Source: an uncultured Phycisphaeraceae bacterium | Lineage (GTDB): Bacteria; Planctomycetota; B15-G4; JADJEK01 | Length of the DNA stretch: 38,036 nt | Direction: 5' to 3' | NCBI GenBank assembly: GCA_964649825.1 | Contig: CAZYQW010000109.1 | Location: 1-38,036, forward strand | Shown here: positions 234 through 38,036 of the stretch, piece after piece | Layout of the letters: each line of letters opens with the position of its first letter | Position numbering within the stretch: the stretch's first letter is position 1 | The notes under the pieces: generated by a model | Told to the model about the DNA's origin: nothing | Database searches by the model: none | Seen by the model: the letters and a program-made list of their open reading frames with translations, nothing else | Translations under genes and position numbers: made by a program

Positions 234-3200
234 ATGACGGGTGACGCCAAGCAGGGCGCGGACGACGAGTCACGCGATCGCCTGGAGGCGTTGATCGCGG
301 CGTGCATCGAGCGCATGGACGAGGGCGACACCGCCTCCGTCACCGCGCTGCTGGATCGCGAGCCGGCGCTGGCCGACCGGGCGCGGGAGGTGCTCGCGTC
401 CCTGATGCATGTGGGAATGGTCGGCGCCGACCGCGTCGCGCCGGACCTCGAGGGGTCGCTCGGCGAGTACCGGCTGCTGCGGCGCCTCGGCTCGGGCGGG
501 ATGGGGACGGTCTACCTCGCGCGCCAGGAATCGCTCGGCCGGCTGGTGGCGGTCAAGGTCGCGCACGCCGAGGCCGACACCACCATCGAGGTCGAGCGCT
601 TCCGGCGCGAGGCGCGCGCGATCGCCTCGCTCCGCCACCCGAACATCGTCCACGTGTTCGGCGTCGGCGAGGTCGACGGGCGGCACTACCTCGCGATGGA
701 GTACATCCCCGGCCGCAGCCTCGCGGAGTGGATGAGGTCGGACCCGATCCCGGTGCCACGGGCGCTGGAGTGGATCCGCCGGATCGCCCTCGCGCTGCAC
801 GTTGCTCACGACAAGGGGATCGTCCACCGCGACGTCAAGCCGACGAACATCCTGATCGACGACCGCCTGCGGCCGTTGCTGGTCGACTTCGGGCTGGTGC
901 GCGAGGCGGGCGCCTCCGAGCTCACGCGCAGCGGGAGTTTCGTCGGCTCCCCGATGTACGCCGCCCCGGAGCAGATCGCCGGAAACGCCGCGATCGGACC
1001 GCGGAGCGACGTCTATTCGCTGGGCGTGACGCTGTACGAGCTCGTCGCCGGCCGTCCGCCGTTCGTTGGCGAGACCACCGAGCGGCTGTTCCACCAGATC
1101 CTGACCGCAACCGCGCCGGCGATCCGCGAACTCCGGCGCGACGTCTCGCGCGACCTGGAGGTCGTGATCCATCGTGCGATCGAGTGCGACCCCGCGCATC
1201 GGTACGCGAGCGCCGCGGAGTTCGCGCGCGACCTGGAGGCGTTGCTCGAGCTGCGCCCGATCGCCGCGCGGCCGCCGGGGCTCGCGCGGCGGGGGAGCCG
1301 CTTCCTCCGCGCGCACCCGGTTGCGAGCACCGCCGGCGCGGTGGCCGCGCTCGCGATCGCGGCGTTCCTCGCGGTCTCGCTGTGGCAGTCCGCGGCGGAG
1401 GCCCGGCGCCGGCGCGACCTCGCGCGGGAGGCGATGGATCGGGCGCGAGGCGAGCTCGCTCACGTCGACTCGGCGGGCGCCCCGCGCGCGGAGGACCTCG
1501 CGGCGCGCCGCGATCGCCTCGCGCTCCGCTATCAGCCGGACGAGGCGTGGGACGCCCTCGACCGCGCGGCCCACGCGCTCCATGTCCACACGGACCGGGC
1601 CGAGACACGACTGGCGGGCGCGCTGCGGGATCTCGATCGCGCGGAGCAGCTCGGCGCCGCGCGCGCGTCCGTCGACGAGCTGCGCGCGCTCGTCCACCTC
1701 GAGCGCTGGCGCTTGTCGCGGCGGGCCGGGGAGCGCCGCGCGAGCGACTACTACCGGCGACAGATCGAGCGGTACGACGCGGCGGGCAGACACCGGGCGG
1801 AGCTGCTCGGACTCGGCGCGGTGCGGTTCGACAGTGATCCGCCGGGAGCGGACGTGTTCCTCTTCCGGCTGGTCGACCGGATGCAGTTCGACGCCGAAGG
1901 GGAGTCGCGGCTTGTGCCGACCCCGAACCGCGAGGGAGATCCACCCGTCGCGCCGGGAGCGCTGTGCATGCGGGTGTGGCGGGACGCGCCTCCGCTCCGC
2001 GAGTCGGACCTCGTCGTCGAGGTCGCCGGCGTCCCGGTCGATGGCGCGGTCGTCGTCGTGCGGGGGGACGGAGCCGGCGTCGAGCCGGGCGATCTCCTGG
2101 CAACCGTCGACGGCGTCGCGGTCCGGTCGACGGAGGACGCGAGCCTCCGGATCGTCACGAAGGCGACGTCGGGCGGGAGCGTCCCGGGCGATGGTCCGGA
2201 GAGCGAGGTGGGCTTTGTCGGCCGTGACGGGCGGCAGGTGACGCGACGCTGCCGCCACATCAGGGAACTCGGGATCGGAGCGCTCGATGCGCGCTCGCTC
2301 GCGGAGCGCGGAGACGTCGACGCGGTCGTGCTGCGCGACGGCGAGCGTGTGCTCCTGCGGCTGCCGCACGACCCTCCGCTGCGCGCGACGACCTCCCCGC
2401 TCGCGATGAGCCCGGAGTGCCACGCTGCGTCCACGCCGGCCGAAGCCATCGACCTGCAGGAGGGGCCCTGGATCGCGGTGTTCCGCGCCAATGAGCGCCA
2501 TCACGCCGTCGTGCCGTTCGACGTCGTCGCCGGAGCGGAGACCGAGGTCGCCGCGGACCTGATTCCGGTGGGCGGGATCCCGGGCGGGTTCGTGGCGATC
2601 ACCGGTCGGAGCGAGGCGGTGGAGACCCCGTTCTTCCTGCAGGAGCACGAGGTCACCTTCGAGCAGTACCTCCCGTTCCTCAACGACCCGGAGATCCAGG
2701 CGGAGATCGACGCGTCCGCGACGCCGATCCTCTATCCGCGCGAGCTGGACAACGCGCGGAGCGTCGGCTTTCTCGCGCGCGAGGCGGACGGCCGGTTCGT
2801 CCCGCGGTTTCCGCAGCAGGCGAAGCTGCCGCTGCCCGGCGTCTCCTACAAGGACGCGACGGCCTTCGTGAGCTGGATGAACCGGCGCGCGGAGGGCGTC
2901 GGGGCCCCTTGGCGGTTCGACCTGCCGACCCTCGCCGAGGTCGACCACGTCCGACAGGCGTCGCGATACCGCGCGTACCCGACCGGTCCGTCCTTCCGGC
3001 CGCACTGGTTCAACGGGTATTTCACCGGACCGGAGGCTTCGCTGCGTCCGGTGTTCTGGACGCCGCAGGACGAGGTGCCGCCCGGGGTCTTCAACCTCGC
3101 GGGCGGCGTCTCGGAGTGGGTGAAGGACTGGTACGACGAGGGGAACCGGCTGCGCGTGACGATCGGCGGGAGCTGGATGAGCACTGATCCGCACGAGTTC

Positions 3201-3281
3201 CGGCTGGATCATCGCGGGTTCCTCGGCGAAGACACATACGCCAACAAGTGGGGCTTCCGGCTCGTCGCGCGCCCTCGCTGA
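234..3281 (+). CDS. Transmembrane Ser/Thr protein kinase with C-terminal formylglycine-generating-enzyme (FGE/SUMF1-like) domain
   Basis: N-terminal Hanks kinase motifs (GSGGMGTVYLA, VAVK, HRDVKPTNILID, DFGLVRE, APE). One TM helix near aa 365-390. C-terminal region matches the FGE-sulfatase fold (GVFNLAGGVSEWVKDWY ... GGSWMSTDPHEFRLDHRGF). Conserved STK N-terminal helix motif shared with the kinase at 33907-36804. Confidence 0.85.
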   Translation: MTGDAKQGADDESRDRLEALIAACIERMDEGDTASVTALLDREPALADRAREVLASLMHVGMVGADRVAPDLEGSLGEYRLLRRLGSGGMGTVYLARQESLGRLVAVKVAHAEADTTIEVERFRREARAIASLRHPNIVHVFGVGEVDGRHYLAMEYIPGRSLAEWMRSDPIPVPRALEWIRRIALALHVAHDKGIVHRDVKPTNILIDDRLRPLLVDFGLVREAGASELTRSGSFVGSPMYAAPEQIAGNAAIGPRSDVYSLGVTLYELVAGRPPFVGETTERLFHQILTATAPAIRELRRDVSRDLEVVIHRAIECDPAHRYASAAEFARDLEALLELRPIAARPPGLARRGSRFLRAHPVASTAGAVAALAIAAFLAVSLWQSAAEARRRRDLAREAMDRARGELAHVDSAGAPRAEDLAARRDRLALRYQPDEAWDALDRAAHALHVHTDRAETRLAGALRDLDRAEQLGAARASVDELRALVHLERWRLSRRAGERRASDYYRRQIERYDAAGRHRAELLGLGAVRFDSDPPGADVFLFRLVDRMQFDAEGESRLVPTPNREGDPPVAPGALCMRVWRDAPPLRESDLVVEVAGVPVDGAVVVVRGDGAGVEPGDLLATVDGVAVRSTEDASLRIVTKATSGGSVPGDGPESEVGFVGRDGRQVTRRCRHIRELGIGALDARSLAERGDVDAVVLRDGERVLLRLPHDPPLRATTSPLAMSPECHAASTPAEAIDLQEGPWIAVFRANERHHAVVPFDVVAGAETEVAADLIPVGGIPGGFVAITGRSEAVETPFFLQEHEVTFEQYLPFLNDPEIQAEIDASATPILYPRELDNARSVGFLAREADGRFVPRFPQQAKLPLPGVSYKDATAFVSWMNRRAEGVGAPWRFDLPTLAEVDHVRQASRYRAYPTGPSFRPHWFNGYFTGPEASLRPVFWTPQDEVPPGVFNLAGGVSEWVKDWYDEGNRLRVTIGGSWMSTDPHEFRLDHRGFLGEDTYANKWGFRLVARPR

Positions 3282-3304
3282 CGAGGGCTTCCGGCTCGTC
3301 GCGC
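3252..3304 (+). repeat. Direct duplication (2 x ~20 bp, ggcttccggctcgtcgcgcg) spanning the kinase stop codon
   Basis: The last codons of the kinase gene (WGFRLVARPR*) are repeated immediately after the stop. Confidence 0.5.
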
Positions 3305-3352
3305 GTCCCCGCGGATCGGGTCCGGCGCTACAATCGCGCCACGAGGTGCTCG

Positions 3353-10441: not shown

Positions 10442-10519
10442 GGTGGGTGTAGCTCAGTTGGTTAGAGCGCCACACTGTGGCTGTGGAGGTCGCGGGTTCA
10501 AATCCCGTCACTCACCCCA
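10442..10519 (+). tRNA. tRNA-His (anticodon GTG) with extra 5' G(-1)
   Basis: Cloverleaf read manually. Acceptor GTGGGTG/CACTCAC. D-arm GCTCAGTTGGTTAGAGC. Anticodon loop CTGTGGC. T-arm GCGGGTTCAAATCCCGT. Discriminator C, then CCA. Confidence 0.85.
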
Positions 10520-10560
10520 TCCTCACGACCTGCGACCGAGACCACCGTCGAACCCAAGGT

Positions 10561-10637
10561 GCGCCCGTAGCTCAACTGGATAGAGTATCGGGCTTCGAAC
10601 CCGAGGGTTGCAGGTTCGAGTCCTGCCGGGCGTACCA
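10561..10637 (+). tRNA. tRNA-Arg (anticodon TCG)
   Basis: GCGCCCGTAGCTCAACTGGATAGAGTA. Anticodon stem TCGGG/CCCGA with loop CTTCGAA. T-arm GCAGGTTCGAGTCCTGC. Ends ...CGGGCGTACCA. Confidence 0.85.
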
Positions 10638-10660
10638 ACTCCCTTGCTCCTCCCCCTATC

Positions 10661-10700
10661 CCATCGGTCCCCATCGGTCCCCATCGGTTGCCAGCGGTTG
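10661..10700. repeat. 10-bp tandem repeat (ccatcggtcc x ~4, last copies degenerate) between tRNA-Arg and tRNA-Lys
   Basis: ccatcggtcc ccatcggtcc ccatcggttg ccagcggttg, seen directly. Confidence 0.8.
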
Positions 10701-10866
10701 CACTGGGCCCTCCGGTCTCGGCCGCGTGACCTGTGAACATGGGATCACCGAAACGCGCCGTCGAGCGGGCGGCCAAGCTTCTCGATCGCGACCTTGACAC
10801 GGAATCGAGTTCCGCTAAAAGAGCAGGTTTCCCTCCCGACCGCGGGAGGCGATGGCGGAAACGCGG

Positions 10867-10942
10867 GCCCTCTTAGCTCAGTTGGTAGAGCAGCTGATTC
10901 TTAATCAGCGGGTCGTAGGTTCGAGTCCTACAGAGGGTACCA
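10867..10942 (+). tRNA. tRNA-Lys (anticodon CTT)
   Basis: Acceptor GCCCTCT/AGAGGGT (G1-U72 wobble). D-arm GCTCAGTTGGTAGAGC. Anticodon stem GCTGA/TCAGC with loop TTCTTAA. T-arm GTAGGTTCGAGTCCTAC. ACCA 3' end. Confidence 0.85.
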
Positions 10943-14398: not shown

Positions 14399-14483
14399 GC
14401 GAGGATGGCGGAACCGGCAGACGCGCCAGATTTAGGATCTGGTGGGGCAACCCGTGGGGGTTCGAGTCCCCCTCCTCGCACCA
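14399..14483 (+). tRNA. tRNA-Leu (anticodon TAG), class II with long variable arm
   Basis: GCGAGGATGGCGGAACCGGCAGACGC D-arm. Anticodon stem CCAGA/TCTGG with loop TTTAGGA. Long variable arm. T-arm GGGGGTTCGAGTCCCCC. ...TCCTCGCACCA. Coordinates are +/-1 because local base counting was ambiguous. Confidence 0.8.
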
Positions 14484-33906: not shown

Positions 33907-36804
33907 TCAGTCCTCGCCGGCGGGACTCGCGCGGTCCAGCGTGCCGAGCCGAGCCTTCCAGCGCCACACCTCCTCGGGCCGAAGTCGCTCGTACAGGGCG
34001 ATCAACGCCACGATCGGCTTCTCCAGCTTCGGGCTGACCGGACCGAACCGGTCGCAGTGGCGTACGTACGACTCCAAGAGGTACGGCTCGGCCCGCTCGG
34101 GCCCGCCGGCGAGAAGGAGCTCCCCGCCCGCGTTGTGCAGCGCGAACAACGCGTCGTCGCCGTTTCGCTCCCGTTCGTCGGGCTGGAGCTCGAGCCAGGC
34201 GGCGTAGTGCATCGCGCGCGCGACGCGCGATCCGCCGGCCTTCCCGTGGAGCATCCCGAGGTCCCAGTGGGCGCGGCGAAGCTCGCCGAACGGGTCCTCC
34301 TCATGATGCCGCCGCATGAACGCGAGGGCTCGTTCGAGGTAGTCGATCGCGAGCTCGAACCGGCCGTAGTGGTGCATGATGACGCTGTATGCCCGCAGCG
34401 CGCGAGACCACATCAGGCTCGACCTCTCCGCCGTCGCCTCCAACAGAACCAGCGCCTCGTACGCGATCGGCTCGGCCTCGCCGAGCCGGCCCGTGCGGAA
34501 CCGATACTCCGCGCAGTTCAGCATCGTCTCCGCCACGTCGAGGGAGAGCTCGCCGCTCGACCGGCGCCGGCGATCGAGCGCGTCGTCGACGAGGGTGATC
34601 GCTTCCGCGAAGTTCCGCTGATCGGCCAGCGTGCGCGCGAGGAGTACCTGCTGCGTCAGCGTCTCCGGATGGTCCGGACCCATCACCGCGCGGCTTCTCG
34701 CCAGCACGTCCCGATAGAGCGTCTCGGCCTCGGCGACCCGTCCCTGCTTGTGTCGAAGCTGTGCGACGTTCCCACGCGTGATCAGCGTGTTGGGATGATC
34801 CGGGTCTCTTCGCAGGTGGAGCTCGAGGGCTCGTTCGAGCAGCGGGCCCGCCTCCTCGAAGCGGCCCCCGATCAGCAGGACGAACCCGAGGTTGTTCAGC
34901 GGCTCACACAGTCGTGGCGAGTCCGACCCGGCGACGCGCGTGATCCCGCCGACGGCGGCGCGGAACCACGTCTCCGCCTCGGCGAGCCGGTTCTGTGCCC
35001 GATAGACGCCGCCGATGTCGTTCTGCGCCGCGAACACCTCGACGTCCTCGTCGCCGCGGACGCGCCGCAGGATCTCGAACCGGCGCATGAGGACGGTGTG
35101 CGCAAGCTCGAGGCGGCCGGCGGTTTTGTGGATGACGGCGAGAACGTACAGCGTGTCGGTGTACCTCGGGTCTTCCTCGGCGAGACGCGCGCCGAAGATC
35201 TCGAGCGCGCGTTCCGCGTGTTCCAGCGCCGGGTCGAGCACGCCGAGGTGCGCGTAGACCCGTCCGATCGTCTGGTGAATCCGACCCGCGATCAAAGGAC
35301 GCTCGCCGAACCGCTCCTCCACGCCGGCCGCGCTCCGGTCGACGACGTCGCGCACCGTTTGATCGCGTGAGCCGTGCCATGGATCGCCGGACGAGAGCAT
35401 CTCGGTCAGGAAACCGGCGGTCACCTCCGCGTCGGCGAGCCCACGCTCCGCGTCCGCCTGCGCGCGCTCGGCAGCGGAGCGTTCGCGCTCGGCGTCGGCG
35501 CGTGCCACCTTGGCGTCCTCCAGCGAGCCGAGCGTGATGACGAGCGCGATCGAGAGCGCGACGAGCACCGCGGCCGTCGCCGCGACCGGGATCCGGTTGC
35601 GCTGCACGAACCGCGTCGCCCGGTAGATGACGGTGTCGCGCTGCGCCCGGACCGGGCGGCCGTCCACGAACCGTCGCAGGTCCTCGGCGAAGTCATGCAC
35701 GCTCGCGTAGCGCCGCGATGGATCGACGCGAAGCGCCATCATGACGATTCGATCGAGGTCGCCCCGCAGGGTCCGGCCCAGCGCCTTCGAGGTCGTCCGT
35801 CGGCGACGTGCGCACTCGACGGCGTCGTAGTCCGTCTGGCGCGACGCCGCGCCGCCGTCGACGGCGTAGCTCGGCGGCGCCGGCGGCTCATCGTTCACCA
35901 ACCGTTCCATCTCCGCCGGCGACAGCGACGAAAGGTCGTGTGGAAGGCGCCCCGTCAGGAGCTCGTACAGCACGACGGCAAGCGAATACTGATCGCTCGG
36001 CGGCCGGATCGTCGCCCGCCGGAACTGCTCCGGGCTCGCGTACGACGGGGTCATGTAGCCGAGCGAGTCGGTGGTCAGGGTGAGATCGCCCCCCAGCTTC
36101 TCCGGACTCAGGACTCCGGCGAGCCCGAAGTCGAGCAGTTTGGGATCGCCGTCGGGCCCGACCAGGATGTTCCCCGGCTTGAGGTCGCGGTGAATGACTC
36201 CGTTCTTGTGGGCGTGCTCCACCGCGCCGCAGACCTTGACGAAGATGCCGATGCGCTCGCGCACGTCCAACTCCGCGGCGTCGCAGTAGCGGTCGATCGG
36301 CACGCCGTCGACGTACTCCATGACGAGGTACGGAACCCCGTCCGCGTCGGCGCCGGCGTCGATCAAGCGCGCGATGTTCGGATGGACGAGCGCGGCGAGG
36401 ACGCGACGCTCGCGCCGGAAGCGGGACAGGACTTCTCCCGAGTCGAGGCCGGGGCGCACGCGCTTCACGGCCACTGTGCGGTCGAACGTGCCATCGATCC
36501 GCCGAGCGAGGAAGACCTCGCCCATTCCGCCCGCACCGATCGGCTCGCCGAGCTCGTACGCGCCGATCCGACGGGTACGCCCGGGGCTCTCGAGCACCTC
36601 GGAGTAGGCGGGGAACACCACGATCGGGTCGAGCGCGGCCTCCGACTCCTCGACCGCGATCAGACCCTCGATTTCGCGCAGCAGATCCGGATTGCCGTAC
36701 GTCCGCTCACGAAGGAACGCGCGGCGCTCGTCGGCGGGGACATCGAGGGACTCCTCGAAGAGCTGCAGCACGCGACGCTGGCGATCCGGGTCGCGCTCAG
36801 TCAT
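33907..36804 (-). CDS. Transmembrane Ser/Thr protein kinase with C-terminal TPR repeats
   Basis: Kinase motifs (GAGGMGEVFLA, VAVK, HRDLKPGNILV, DFGLA, SPEQ). One TM helix. ~550 aa of TPR-like repeats. Start overlaps the upstream ECF sigma stop by 8 nt. Confidence 0.85.
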   Translation of the reverse strand: MTERDPDRQRRVLQLFEESLDVPADERRAFLRERTYGNPDLLREIEGLIAVEESEAALDPIVVFPAYSEVLESPGRTRRIGAYELGEPIGAGGMGEVFLARRIDGTFDRTVAVKRVRPGLDSGEVLSRFRRERRVLAALVHPNIARLIDAGADADGVPYLVMEYVDGVPIDRYCDAAELDVRERIGIFVKVCGAVEHAHKNGVIHRDLKPGNILVGPDGDPKLLDFGLAGVLSPEKLGGDLTLTTDSLGYMTPSYASPEQFRRATIRPPSDQYSLAVVLYELLTGRLPHDLSSLSPAEMERLVNDEPPAPPSYAVDGGAASRQTDYDAVECARRRRTTSKALGRTLRGDLDRIVMMALRVDPSRRYASVHDFAEDLRRFVDGRPVRAQRDTVIYRATRFVQRNRIPVAATAAVLVALSIALVITLGSLEDAKVARADAERERSAAERAQADAERGLADAEVTAGFLTEMLSSGDPWHGSRDQTVRDVVDRSAAGVEERFGERPLIAGRIHQTIGRVYAHLGVLDPALEHAERALEIFGARLAEEDPRYTDTLYVLAVIHKTAGRLELAHTVLMRRFEILRRVRGDEDVEVFAAQNDIGGVYRAQNRLAEAETWFRAAVGGITRVAGSDSPRLCEPLNNLGFVLLIGGRFEEAGPLLERALELHLRRDPDHPNTLITRGNVAQLRHKQGRVAEAETLYRDVLARSRAVMGPDHPETLTQQVLLARTLADQRNFAEAITLVDDALDRRRRSSGELSLDVAETMLNCAEYRFRTGRLGEAEPIAYEALVLLEATAERSSLMWSRALRAYSVIMHHYGRFELAIDYLERALAFMRRHHEEDPFGELRRAHWDLGMLHGKAGGSRVARAMHYAAWLELQPDERERNGDDALFALHNAGGELLLAGGPERAEPYLLESYVRHCDRFGPVSPKLEKPIVALIALYERLRPEEVWRWKARLGTLDRASPAGED

Positions 36805-37363
36805 CCGCGAGCGCCTTCTGGAGCCACACGCGTGCCGACTTCCAGCGCCGCTCCGCCGTGCGGAGCTGCAGCCCGAAGTGCTCCGCGACGTCCGCCATGT
36901 CGACGCCCCCGAACAGCCTCATCTCGGCGATCTGCCCGAGCTGCTCGTCGATCTCCTCGAGCCGCTTCAACGCATCGTCGAGCACGAGGACGTCGTTCCC
37001 CGTCGCCGGCTCCGACGGCCCGGACTCGACGGACAGCGTGACGTCGCGCACCGCCCCGCCCCGCCGTTTCGCGCCCCGGCGACGCGCGTGGTCGACGAGC
37101 AGCGACCGCATCACCCGTGACGCCAGCGCGTAGAACTGCCGGCGGCTCTCCCAGTGGCCCGCTTCCGGCCGGATCAGCCGGATCCACGCGTCGTGCACGA
37201 GTTCGGTCGGGTTCAACGTGTGGTTCGCCCGCTCGTTCCCCAGGTGGCGTTGCGCGAGCTTGCGGAGCTCCGCGTGCAGGATCGGCGCGAACTCGTCACG
37301 CGCCCGCGCGTCGCCCTCGCACAGGCGTTTCAGAAGCTCCGTTGCGTCCGGTCCAGTGGCCAT
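36797..37363 (-). CDS. ECF sigma-70 factor of the Ser/Thr-kinase-associated family (TIGR02999-like)
   Basis: N-terminal TELLKRLCEGDARARDEFAPILHAELRKLA. Region 2 (HDAWIRL) and region 4 HTH (EIAEMRLFGGVDMADVAEHFG). Forms an operon with the downstream kinase. Confidence 0.85.
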   Translation of the reverse strand: MATGPDATELLKRLCEGDARARDEFAPILHAELRKLAQRHLGNERANHTLNPTELVHDAWIRLIRPEAGHWESRRQFYALASRVMRSLLVDHARRRGAKRRGGAVRDVTLSVESGPSEPATGNDVLVLDDALKRLEEIDEQLGQIAEMRLFGGVDMADVAEHFGLQLRTAERRWKSARVWLQKALADD

Positions 37364-37497
37364 CCAAGGAGGATACCTCGCGAATGCCAACCGCGACGAC
37401 GGAACGACGCCACCCCACGACCCTCCCTGCGCGCCGCGCCACGGCAGGCCGACCGGCGGGCCCCGATCCGCTTGGAATCTCGCAACTTACGGTCCGC

Positions 37498-37595
37498 GAG
37501 TCTGGGCGTCGTTCCGGACGACGCGAACAGGCGGAACGACGTGGTACGCGGGAGCGGGGACGAAGAGTTCTCCAGAGTGATACCGCGTGGAACGG
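37498..37595. repeat. Copy A of a ~98-bp direct repeat upstream of the ECF sigma gene
   Basis: gagtctgggcgtcgttccggacgacgcgaacaggcggaacgacgtggtacgcgggagcggggacgaagagttctccagagtgataccgcgtggaacgg. ~90% identical to copy B. Confidence 0.8.
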
Positions 37596-37729
37596 GGACG
37601 GACGGTCGCCGTGTTCGGCCGAGGATGGGTGATGCGGTAGCACCACTTGCTCTTAGGAAGGGAGAGGAACTTGGCGCGCGAATACGACGGTGACCGGGGG
37701 CGACGCCCGCGCCGCGTGGCCGCGGCCAC

Positions 37730-37827
37730 GAGTCTGGGCGTCGATTCCTGACGACGCGGACAGGAGGAGCGACGTGGTACGCGGGAGCGGGGACGAAGAT
37801 CTCTCCAGAGTGATACCGCGTGGAACG
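37730..37827. repeat. Copy B of the ~98-bp direct repeat
   Basis: gagtctgggcgtcgattcctgacgacgcggacaggaggagcgacgtggtacgcgggagcggggacgaagatctctccagagtgataccgcgtggaacgg. Confidence 0.8.
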
Positions 37828-38036
37828 GTGTCGCGCGGTCGCGGGCCGCGCGGCTCGATGCCAGGAAAGTCGAGGTTGTTCGACGCGGCGACTTGACCTT
37901 GGTTCGACCTGGGCTAATAGATGCCCTAATGCTGAACCGACCTTCGACGACCATGCGCAAGCGACCGGGGCCCAAGCCGAAGCGAGGGTCGGGGGTGTCG
38001 CATCACGCGCGGGAGGCGATCGACGGGCGGACTATC

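What the first reader, a model, noticed from the sequence alone, without database searches (positions are those of the whole stretch)
37498..37827. Two ~98-bp direct repeats (~90% identical) 232 bp apart, upstream of the ECF sigma/STK operon and reaching the window edge
The copies share a conserved core (gacgtggtacgcgggagcggggacgaaga..tctccagagtgataccgcgtggaacgg) with potential stems (acgcgg...ccgcgt; gtcgt-tccgg-acgac). Differences cluster in two short patches. They are non-coding, since only junk ORFs overlap them. They could be repeated operator or enhancer sites for the sigma promoter, a small-RNA or riboswitch-like leader family, or a dispersed repeat (REP/MITE-like). More copies may lie beyond 38036.
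Basis: seen in the sequence. Interest (0 to 1): 0.5.

Follow-up and report, generated by a model that had tools for sequence, protein, structure and literature searches.

The report
Two-copy hairpin repeat beside sigma operon
Two nearly identical, non-coding ~120-base units that can fold into two hairpins sit next to a sigma-factor/kinase operon in an uncultured planctomycete-like bacterium, but they occur nowhere else I could search and are missing from the same spot in close relatives, so they look like an ordinary lineage-specific intergenic repeat, not a conserved control element.

Summary
The repeat is real. The copies are at 37494-37612 and 37726-37845, same strand. They are 93% identical over the 100-nt core, with one 1-nt indel. 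The sequences that follow each copy are unrelated, so this is a discrete unit present twice, not a decayed 232-bp tandem duplication. It is non-coding and matches no Rfam family.

On the + strand each unit folds into two hairpins (z about -2 to -2.5). All seven core substitutions keep base pairs or fall in loops, including one G-C to U-A double change. A random-mutation control reproduces that pattern in 3-17% of trials, so the structure is suggestive only.

No further copy was found:
- in the rest of the 38-kb contig;
- in about 100 kb around the orthologous sigma gene in eight relatives;
- in genome, metagenome or viral DNA scans;
- in two protein-level searches for ORFs overlapping copies.

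The closest relative (sigma 89% identical) has only a 140-bp upstream region without the unit. A role as operator or enhancer of the sigma operon is therefore not supported.

Best guess (0.35): a small hairpin-type intergenic repeat element in non-conserved DNA at a synteny break. Main rival (0.25): a tandem pair of sibling small RNAs. Interest is low.

The parts
37494..37612 (+). Repeat unit, copy A (about 119 nt; similarity may begin at 37491)
   Evidence: cmsearch 144.8 bits
37726..37845 (+). Repeat unit, copy B (about 120 nt; one extra A at 37744)
   Evidence: cmsearch 147.3 bits
37506..37542 (+). Hairpin 1 of copy A: GCGUCGUUCCG / CGGAACGACGU, 11 bp, 15-nt loop
   Evidence: -18.6 kcal/mol, z -2.27; consensus helix, columns 13-24 with 40-50
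37738..37775 (+). Hairpin 1 of copy B: same helix with a bulged A, G-C replaced by U-A, and U-A replaced by U-G
   Evidence: one pair changed on both sides, one on one side; -15.8 kcal/mol, z -2.51
37539..37590 (+). Hairpin 2 domain of copy A (outer stem ACGUGGUACGC / GUG-A-UACCGCGU, inner stem-loop). This is the most conserved part: 2 differences in 59 nt, both at the apex
   Evidence: -23.1 kcal/mol, z -2.37; minus strand only -13.7, z -1.28
37772..37823 (+). Hairpin 2 domain of copy B
   Evidence: -22.4 kcal/mol, z -1.97
37613..37725 (.). Unique spacer between the copies. It is not similar to the sequence after copy B. It contains a purine-rich GGGAGAGGAAC followed by TTG.
   Evidence: local alignment score equals the shuffle mean; no other match
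37364..37493 (-). Sigma-proximal upstream region. It holds the only blocks conserved with the closest relative (GTAAGT, CAAGNGGATCG, ribosome-binding region), so it probably holds the sigma promoter. It lies outside the repeat.
   Evidence: alignment with L003; blastn homology from 37381 downward
36797..37363 (-). ECF sigma factor gene (PF07638), neighbour on the left, divergent from the + strand of the repeat
33907..36804 (-). Ser/Thr kinase with TPR repeats, overlapping the sigma stop codon (context)
37953..38036 (+). Start of a + strand ORF cut by the contig end (MRKRPGPKPKRGSGVSHHAREAIDGRTI; alternative ATG at 37929). GC3 is 0.86. The family is unknown.
   Evidence: no homologue or family

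Best explanation
The two units are copies of a small, lineage-specific, non-coding repeat element of the hairpin type. That is the broad class of REP/REPIN-like intergenic repeats, as opposed to inverted-repeat MITEs.

The units sit in DNA that does not belong to the conserved sigma-kinase locus. They lie at a synteny break, just upstream of the sigma promoter region and upstream of a + strand ORF of unknown family.

What is shown:
- The unit is discrete, with sharp boundaries and unrelated flanks.
- It is non-coding.
- It folds better on the + strand, into two hairpins that both copies keep.
- It is absent from the same locus in all relatives examined.

What is inferred:
- The unit was copied as a module, by transposition-like or recombination-based spread, possibly together with the neighbouring ORF.
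- Any effect it has comes from + strand hairpins in single-stranded DNA or in transcripts, for example as a transcript end, a stabiliser or a recombination substrate. It does not act as a regulator of the sigma operon.
- More copies probably exist in the unassembled part of this genome.
For: - Discrete unit: 93% identity inside, and no detectable similarity in the 115 nt after each copy (local alignment score 15 against a shuffle mean of 14.9). A neutral tandem duplication of a 232-bp segment would have left equally similar spacers.
- Not part of the conserved locus: eight orthologous sigma-kinase loci lack it by nhmmer, blastn and covariance-model search. They have short upstream regions with a different neighbour each time. 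Homology with the 89% relative ends about 8-10 nt to the left of copy A.
- Hairpins: both domains fold with z of -2.0 to -2.5 on the + strand and more weakly on the - strand. All 7 core substitutions and the indel are compatible with the consensus structure, with one G-C to U-A double change.
- Position: the unit lies 191 nt from a contig end. An independent assembly of the same organism breaks inside copy A (L001). Both would be expected if this sequence is repeated.
- Non-coding: no Pfam hit or homologue for any frame, and low GC3.
Against: - No third copy was found anywhere. This covers the other 37.5 kb of the contig, GTDB genomes, JGI metagenomes (one chance hit), viral contigs, and predicted proteins overlapping copies in 5.8 and 1.84 billion-sequence libraries.
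- There is no significant terminal inverted repeat, and no target-site duplication shared by both copies.
- No transposase is identified. The adjacent ORF has no detectable relatives, not even a second copy.
- The structural signal is weak. Random-mutation controls give at least one compensatory pair in 17% of trials and the full observed pattern in about 3%.
- The two-copy arrangement rests on a single assembly.
Confidence: 0.35

Rival explanations
1. The units are a tandem pair of sibling small RNAs (or two copies of a structured leader) transcribed on the + strand, divergently from the sigma gene. Each unit would be one RNA gene, with hairpin 2 as the conserved body.
For: - The geometry resembles tandem sibling sRNAs. 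PrrF1/PrrF2 are 95% identical and 95 nt apart (PMC4211561). Here the units are 93% identical and 113-115 nt apart, with an unrelated spacer.
- The + strand folds better than the - strand because of G-U pairs.
- One compensatory and two one-sided pair-preserving changes, with no disruptive change.
- The central 59 nt are 97% identical.
Against: - No Rfam family matches, even at E<=10.
- The consensus scan finds no sigma-70-type promoter and no intrinsic terminator.
- The 3' end, where a terminator would sit, is the least conserved part.
- The unit is absent from the syntenic site of a relative whose sigma is 89% identical.
- Covariation is not significant by the simulation, and the shuffle control is uninformative with two sequences.
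Confidence: 0.25
2. The units are a neutral remnant of local duplication. The segment was duplicated, and the spacer was later inserted or replaced. There is no function.
For: - Only two copies are known, and they are adjacent and in direct orientation.
- There is no conservation in relatives.
- The covariation is statistically weak.
Against: - The drop from 93% identity to random at both boundaries needs at least two precise events.
- The substitutions avoid disrupting either hairpin.
Confidence: 0.15
3. The units are duplicated double-stranded DNA binding sites (operators or upstream activating sites) for a regulator of the sigma-kinase operon or of the + strand ORF.
For: - They lie in a divergent intergenic region.
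- Each unit contains a near-palindrome, CGTCGT-TCCGG-ACGACG, and GGAAC-like motifs.
- A -35-like TTGACC lies about 50 nt downstream of copy B.
Against: - 117 nt is far longer than usual operators.
- The palindrome's half-site spacing differs by 1 bp between copies. A hairpin loop or bulge tolerates that, but a dimeric DNA binder usually does not.
- The relatives' sigma operons lack the units.
- No ECF-type -35/-10 pair is conserved in both copies (read from the sequence).
Confidence: 0.1
4. Each unit is the ribosome-binding site plus the first 18 codons of a small protein gene: 37541-37693 (50 aa) and 37774-37896 (40 aa). That would make two small paralogous ORFs.
For: - A conserved GTG is preceded by AGGAGG in copy B (AGGCGG in copy A).
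- The two nucleotide differences in the shared 18 codons give conservative changes, E to D and F to L.
Against: - GC3 is 0.54 and 0.72, against 0.88-0.92 in real genes.
- Both differences are non-synonymous and none is synonymous.
- The C-terminal parts are unrelated.
- No homologue was found in 5.8 billion proteins.
- Conservation extends 47 nt upstream of the GTG.
Confidence: 0.05

Closest known systems
REP / REPIN elements associated with RAYT transposases (PMC3116915, PMC3337134)
   Same: [quoted passage not shown]
- They often occur as clusters of several units in one intergenic region, and next to the gene that mobilises them.
- They have no terminal inverted repeats of the MITE kind.
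   Different: - REPINs are two short REPs in inverted orientation forming one long hairpin (89 bp in SBW25). They are present in tens to hundreds of copies, and the RAYT is recognisable.
- Here the unit has two separate hairpins and the two units are direct.
- Only two copies are known.
- The neighbouring ORF cannot be assigned to any family.
Tandem sibling small RNAs such as PrrF1/PrrF2 and OmrA/OmrB (PMC4211561)
   Same: - Two ~100-nt units more than 90% identical, head to tail, separated by ~100 nt of unrelated sequence.
- Structured.
- Located in an intergenic region next to a regulator gene.
   Different: - Those RNAs have mapped promoters with regulator boxes and Rho-independent terminators. 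They are conserved across a genus.
- None of that could be shown here, and the closest relative lacks the units at this site.
MITE-type bacterial repeats (Correia/NEMIS, RUP) and ERIC/IRU elements (from my own knowledge, not checked in a paper here)
   Same: A size of 100-130 nt, an intergenic position, and the potential to fold when transcribed.
   Different: - Those elements have terminal inverted repeats and usually target-site duplications, or form one long imperfect palindrome. They occur in many copies.
- The terminal inverted repeat score here is at the null mean, and no target-site duplication is shared by both copies.

Membership tests
Any Rfam 15 RNA family (riboswitches, leaders, sRNAs, ribozymes, IS-associated RNAs) | Match to a curated covariance model | tested here: not met
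   cmscan of 36500-38036, both strands, E<=10: 0 matches
REP/REPIN-RAYT system | [quoted passage not shown] | tested here: met
   Two hairpins per unit, z of -2.0 to -2.5, kept in both copies
REP/REPIN-RAYT system | Two short REPs in inverted orientation forming one long hairpin | tested here: not met
   The unit has two independent hairpins. The ends of the unit are not complementary.
REP/REPIN-RAYT system | Tens to hundreds of copies per genome | not testable with these tools
   Only this 38-kb contig of the genome is available. It holds 2 copies and no others. No copy was found in any public collection scanned.
REP/REPIN-RAYT system | Flanks a RAYT (IS200-like Y1 transposase) gene | tested here: inconclusive
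   The adjacent ORF is cut after 28 codons. It gives no Pfam or NCBIfam hit and has no homologue. My recollection that its N-terminus resembles some Y1-type proteins is untested.
MITE | Terminal inverted repeats | tested here: not met
   Best 5'/3' end complementarity scores are 6 and 5, against null means of 6.2 and 5.9
MITE | Target-site duplication flanking each copy | tested here: not met
   Copy A has nothing longer than 4 nt. Copy B has GGCCGCG, which is common in 69% GC DNA.
Tandem sibling sRNAs | Own promoter and terminator for each unit | tested here: not met
   The consensus scan finds 0 promoter-like and 0 terminator-like sites in 37300-38036. The scan covers only sigma-70-type promoters and U-tract terminators, so this is a weak negative.
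Tandem sibling sRNAs | Conserved secondary structure with covariation | tested here: inconclusive
   1 compensatory and 2 one-sided changes, with none disruptive. Similar patterns appear in 3-17% of random-mutation controls.
Tandem sibling sRNAs | Discrete transcripts | not testable with these tools
   No expression data are available.
Operator or enhancer of the ECF sigma-kinase operon | Conserved upstream of the orthologous operon | tested here: not met
   Absent in 8 orthologous loci, which have 0-190-bp upstream regions
Diversity-generating retroelement TR/VR pair | Differences confined to adenines of one copy; the VR lies inside a gene; a reverse transcriptase gene is nearby | tested here: not met
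   In the alignments, the differing positions in copy A are G,-,G,A,C,A,G,T... and in copy B A,A,T,G,A,G,T,C... Both copies are intergenic.
Integron attC sites | RYYYAAC ... GTTRRRY inverse-core and core sites at the ends of the unit | tested here: not met
   Read from the sequence: GTT precedes AAC in the inverted repeat, and no RYYYAAC is present.

The most novel reading that the evidence does not exclude
The units could be two copies of a previously undescribed structured non-coding RNA of an uncultured planctomycete-like lineage. Two forms are possible. One is a pair of sibling regulatory RNAs encoded divergently from an ECF sigma/kinase module. The other is the non-coding RNA or hairpin end of a new mobile element whose gene starts at 37953. 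On the second reading, the homology break falling right after ACTTAC, with a hairpin ~20 nt further in, is reminiscent of IS200/IS605 left ends. That resemblance is unproven.
Probability: 0.12. Interest if true: 0.5.

Novelty: new member of a known kind. Interest (0 to 1): 0.2.

Why it matters
As it stands, it matters little. It is one more lineage-specific intergenic repeat in a poorly sampled phylum, and it should not be annotated as a control element of the sigma-kinase operon.

It would matter more in two cases. If a complete genome showed many copies, it would be a new hairpin-type repeat family, possibly with its mobilising gene next door. If transcript data showed two discrete RNAs, they would be the first sibling sRNAs described in this lineage, sitting next to an ECF sigma/Ser-Thr kinase pair whose regulation is unknown.

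Tried and rejected
**Searches for further copies (all negative)**
- Exact 29-mer and 20-mer scans of GTDB genomes.
- A gapped two-anchor scan of JGI metagenomes. It gave one hit, inside a low-GC ABC-ATPase gene, which is a chance match.
- 17-mer scans of viral contigs. They gave two hits; nhmmer shows no wider similarity.
- blastn, nhmmer and covariance-model searches of the window and of 8 related loci.
- A six-frame 'peptide' query built from both copies, searched against 5.8 billion proteins to catch ORFs called over other copies.
- The 162-aa minus-strand ORF, searched against 1.84 billion representatives.

**Extending beyond the contig end: failed**
- The window is the whole contig.
- It is not circular.
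- The only other assembly of this organism ends inside copy A.

**Identifying the + strand ORF: failed**
- Pfam, NCBIfam, the word-indexed homologue search and tblastn on plasmids gave nothing.
- The plasmid hits are chance matches.

**A decayed 232-bp tandem duplication: rejected**

**Other identities rejected**
- DGR TR/VR pair, integron attC sites, tRNA-derived sequence and intrinsic terminators.

**An error of mine**
- searched only L001 because of how the files were stored. It was redone correctly.

Full report
**Observation**

The region 37364-37952 is a 590-bp gap between two genes. On the minus strand is an ECF sigma factor gene (36797-37363, PF07638, E 1e-44), followed by a Ser/Thr kinase with TPR repeats (33907-36804). 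On the plus strand an ORF starts at 37953 and is cut by the end of the sequence.

- The repeat finder reports two 98-nt copies at 90% identity, plus an 18-nt extension shifted by one base.
- Alignment joins these into units 37494-37612 and 37726-37845.
- The first 100 columns differ by seven substitutions and one inserted A. The last ~17 nt are only about 59% identical.
- The two longest identical blocks are 30 and 27 nt.
- Both cores occur exactly twice in the 38 kb and never in shuffles.

The unit is longer than 98 nt. Copy B ends 191 nt before the end of the window. The window is an entire 38036-bp contig from an NCBI assembly, so nothing lies 'beyond' it in the record.

**What kind of repeat it is**

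The 115 nt after copy A and the 115 nt after copy B show no similarity. The local alignment score is 15, against a mean of 14.9 for shuffles and 17 for random real windows. The left flanks are also unrelated.

A single tandem duplication of a 232-bp segment would leave spacers as similar as the units. The unit is therefore a discrete module with sharp edges, present twice.

- It has no terminal inverted repeat above background.
- No target-site duplication is common to both copies.
- The rest of the intergenic region matches nothing else in the window or in related loci.

**Coding potential**

- All six reading frames of both copies were concatenated and searched against 5.8 billion proteins. 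Nothing scored at E<=1.
- The 162-aa minus-strand ORF spanning both copies has no hit among 1.84 billion representatives.
- A conserved GTG inside each unit opens ORFs of 50 and 40 aa that share 18 N-terminal residues. Copy B even has AGGAGG six bases upstream.
- Against those ORFs being genes: GC3 is 0.54 and 0.72 against 0.88-0.92 in the neighbouring genes. Both nucleotide differences in the shared part are non-synonymous. The tails are unrelated.

I treat the unit as non-coding.

**Structure**

No Rfam family matches, even at E<=10. Whole-unit folds are unremarkable (z of -1.9 and -0.2 on the + strand, about 0 and -0.9 on the - strand). The two sub-domains fold better than shuffles on the + strand:

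| Domain | Copy A | Copy B |
|---|---|---|
| Hairpin 1 | -18.6 kcal/mol, z -2.3 | -15.8 kcal/mol, z -2.5 |
| Hairpin 2 | -23.1 kcal/mol, z -2.4 | -22.4 kcal/mol, z -2.0 |

For copy A (the only copy folded on this strand), the minus strand folds are weaker: z -1.3 for hairpin 2 and z -1.9 for hairpin 1. Several pairs there are G-U on the + strand.

RNAalifold on the + strand gives an 11-bp helix (columns 13-24 with 40-50) and a 7+7-bp second domain. Every difference in the 100-nt core either keeps a pair or lies in a loop or bulge:
- one G-C to U-A double change;
- one U-A to U-G change;
- one G-U to A-U change;
- the indel as a bulge;
- one substitution in the hairpin 1 loop;
- two substitutions at the apex of hairpin 2.

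This looks good but carries little weight. I mutated copy A at seven random positions and re-ran the same procedure. At least one 'compensatory' pair appeared in 17% of 2000 trials, and the full pattern (one compensatory plus two one-sided) appeared in 2.9%. With two sequences the shuffle control of the count of structure pairs is uninformative (261 of 500). The structure is plausible and favours the + strand, but it is not established.

**Relatives**

The sigma protein has homologues at 89, 72, 70, 66 and about 63% identity in other assemblies. I fetched eight such loci, about 100 kb in all.

- All keep the sigma-kinase pair.
- The upstream neighbour differs in almost every one: an Ig-like gene on the same strand, a divergent cytochrome c peroxidase, an overlapping radical SAM gene, or small ORFs.
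- The upstream gap is 0-190 bp in every case.
- None contains the unit by nhmmer, blastn or a covariance model built from the two copies. One search had searched only one locus by mistake and was repeated.

In the alignment with the 89% relative, the conserved blocks are the ribosome-binding region, CAAGNGGATCG and GTAAGT. They all lie between the sigma ATG and about 37483, and similarity stops 8-10 nt to the left of copy A. The probable sigma promoter is therefore outside the repeat. The repeat sits in DNA that the relatives do not share, at a synteny break.

The relatives' loci carry PSCyt1/PSCyt2/PSD1 and DUF1501 genes, which points to a planctomycete-type organism. The closest named sigma is from Engelhardtia mirabilis at 47% (bioRxiv 10.1101/817700).

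**Copies elsewhere**

Exact-word scans gave nothing real:
- GTDB species genomes: 29-mer and 20-mer.
- JGI metagenomes: two 12-mers with a gap. The single hit lies inside a low-GC ABC-ATPase gene and is a chance match.
- Viral contigs: the two 17-mer hits have no wider similarity.

The only other assembly of the same organism is a 1.5-kb Logan contig from SRR10083321. It is identical over the sigma gene and 199 nt upstream, and it stops inside copy A at 37562.

So only two copies are known. Just 38 kb of this genome can be seen, and the source genome is not in the collections scanned.

**The neighbouring ORF**

The ORF begins MRKRPGPKPKRGSGVSHHAREAIDGRTI. It has coding-like GC3 (0.86). A 61% GC stretch containing TTGACC-N16-TAATAG precedes it.

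It gives no Pfam or NCBIfam hit. No protein in the 5.8-billion library shares even three 5-residue words with it. The tblastn hits on plasmids are noise.

From memory, the motif G-x-G-V-S-H-x-x-R resembles the N-terminal extension of some IS200-like Y1 proteins of high-GC bacteria. I could not test this, and I give it no weight beyond a lead. The lack of any second copy of this N-terminus in the databases argues against a multi-copy insertion sequence.

**Explanation**

Three facts constrain the answer. The unit is discrete. The hairpins are kept. The unit is absent from the conserved locus. Together they argue against a simple neutral tandem duplication and against a conserved operator or enhancer of the sigma operon. 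Two models remain.

1. A small hairpin-type repeat element, in the broad sense of REP/REPIN-like sequences. [quoted passage not shown] I rate this at 0.35. The reasons are the sharp boundaries, the location at a synteny break and contig end, and the assembly break inside copy A. Against it, no third copy is known, and the unit does not have REPIN architecture.

2. A tandem pair of sibling small RNAs on the + strand. The geometry is much like PrrF1/PrrF2, which are 95% identical and 95 nt apart (PMC4211561). I rate this at 0.25. The reasons are the strand asymmetry and the pair-preserving changes. Against it, there is no recognisable promoter or terminator and no conservation in relatives.

Lower-ranked models are a neutral remnant (0.15), duplicated protein-binding sites (0.10) and small-ORF starts (0.05).

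**Verdict**

The repeat is real, but on present evidence it is ordinary. It is a lineage-specific, two-copy, probably structured intergenic unit of unknown role, not tied to the sigma-kinase operon. The decisive data are copy number from read depth or a complete genome, the full neighbouring gene, and transcript mapping.

Noticed in passing
window 1-38036: The window is a complete contig of an NCBI assembly (the sigma protein's longest contig is 38036 bp). It is not circular: there is no terminal overlap, and the end ORF does not continue sensibly into the start.
   Followed up: yes
L001 1-69 = window 37562-37494: An independent Logan assembly of the same organism (SRR10083321) ends inside copy A, 4 nt before the end of the 30-nt block shared by both copies. 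This could reflect graph branching at a repeat, possibly at a third variant copy, or just low coverage.
   Followed up: partly
window 37478-37493: Upstream similarity to the closest relative (L003) stops right after ACTTAC (+ strand), and hairpin 1 of copy A starts ~20 nt further on. The layout is reminiscent of an IS200/IS605 left end inserted 3' of TTAC. The intergenic alignment is weak, and nothing else supports this.
   Followed up: partly
window 37541-37693 and 37774-37896: Small + strand ORFs (50 and 40 aa) start at a GTG conserved in both units and share 18 N-terminal residues. Copy B has a perfect AGGAGG 6 nt upstream, and that sequence is also the 3' strand of hairpin 1. GC3 is low and there are no homologues.
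   Followed up: yes
window 37894-37955: TTGACC-N16-TAATAG lies in a locally lower-GC (61%) stretch just upstream of in-frame ATGs at 37929 and 37953. It may be the promoter of a nearly leaderless + strand gene. The consensus scanner does not accept it.
   Followed up: no
window 234-3281 versus 33907-36804: A second Ser/Thr kinase paralogue lies at the other end of the contig in inverted orientation (64-73-nt inverted matches at 73-77%). Relatives also carry a second sigma-kinase pair a few kb away (L011, L013).
   Followed up: no
window 3251-3315: A 31-nt near-tandem repeat (90%, spacing 34) straddles the stop codon of the ORF 234-3281.
   Followed up: no
L004 8659-8707 and 8905-8953: A relative has its own pair of 49-nt direct repeats (80%, 246 bp apart), one in the gap next to the cytochrome c peroxidase gene upstream of its sigma gene and the other just inside that gene's 3' end. 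The sequence is not significantly similar to the unit studied here.
   Followed up: no
window 10443-10942 and 14399-14483: There is a cluster of tRNA-His, tRNA-Arg and tRNA-Lys genes, and a separate tRNA-Leu. None is related to the repeat.
   Followed up: no
L002 345-393: The two 12-mers GTGGTACGCGGG and GATACCGCGTGG co-occur 25 nt apart inside a low-GC ABC-transporter ATPase gene of an unrelated metagenome contig.
   Followed up: yes
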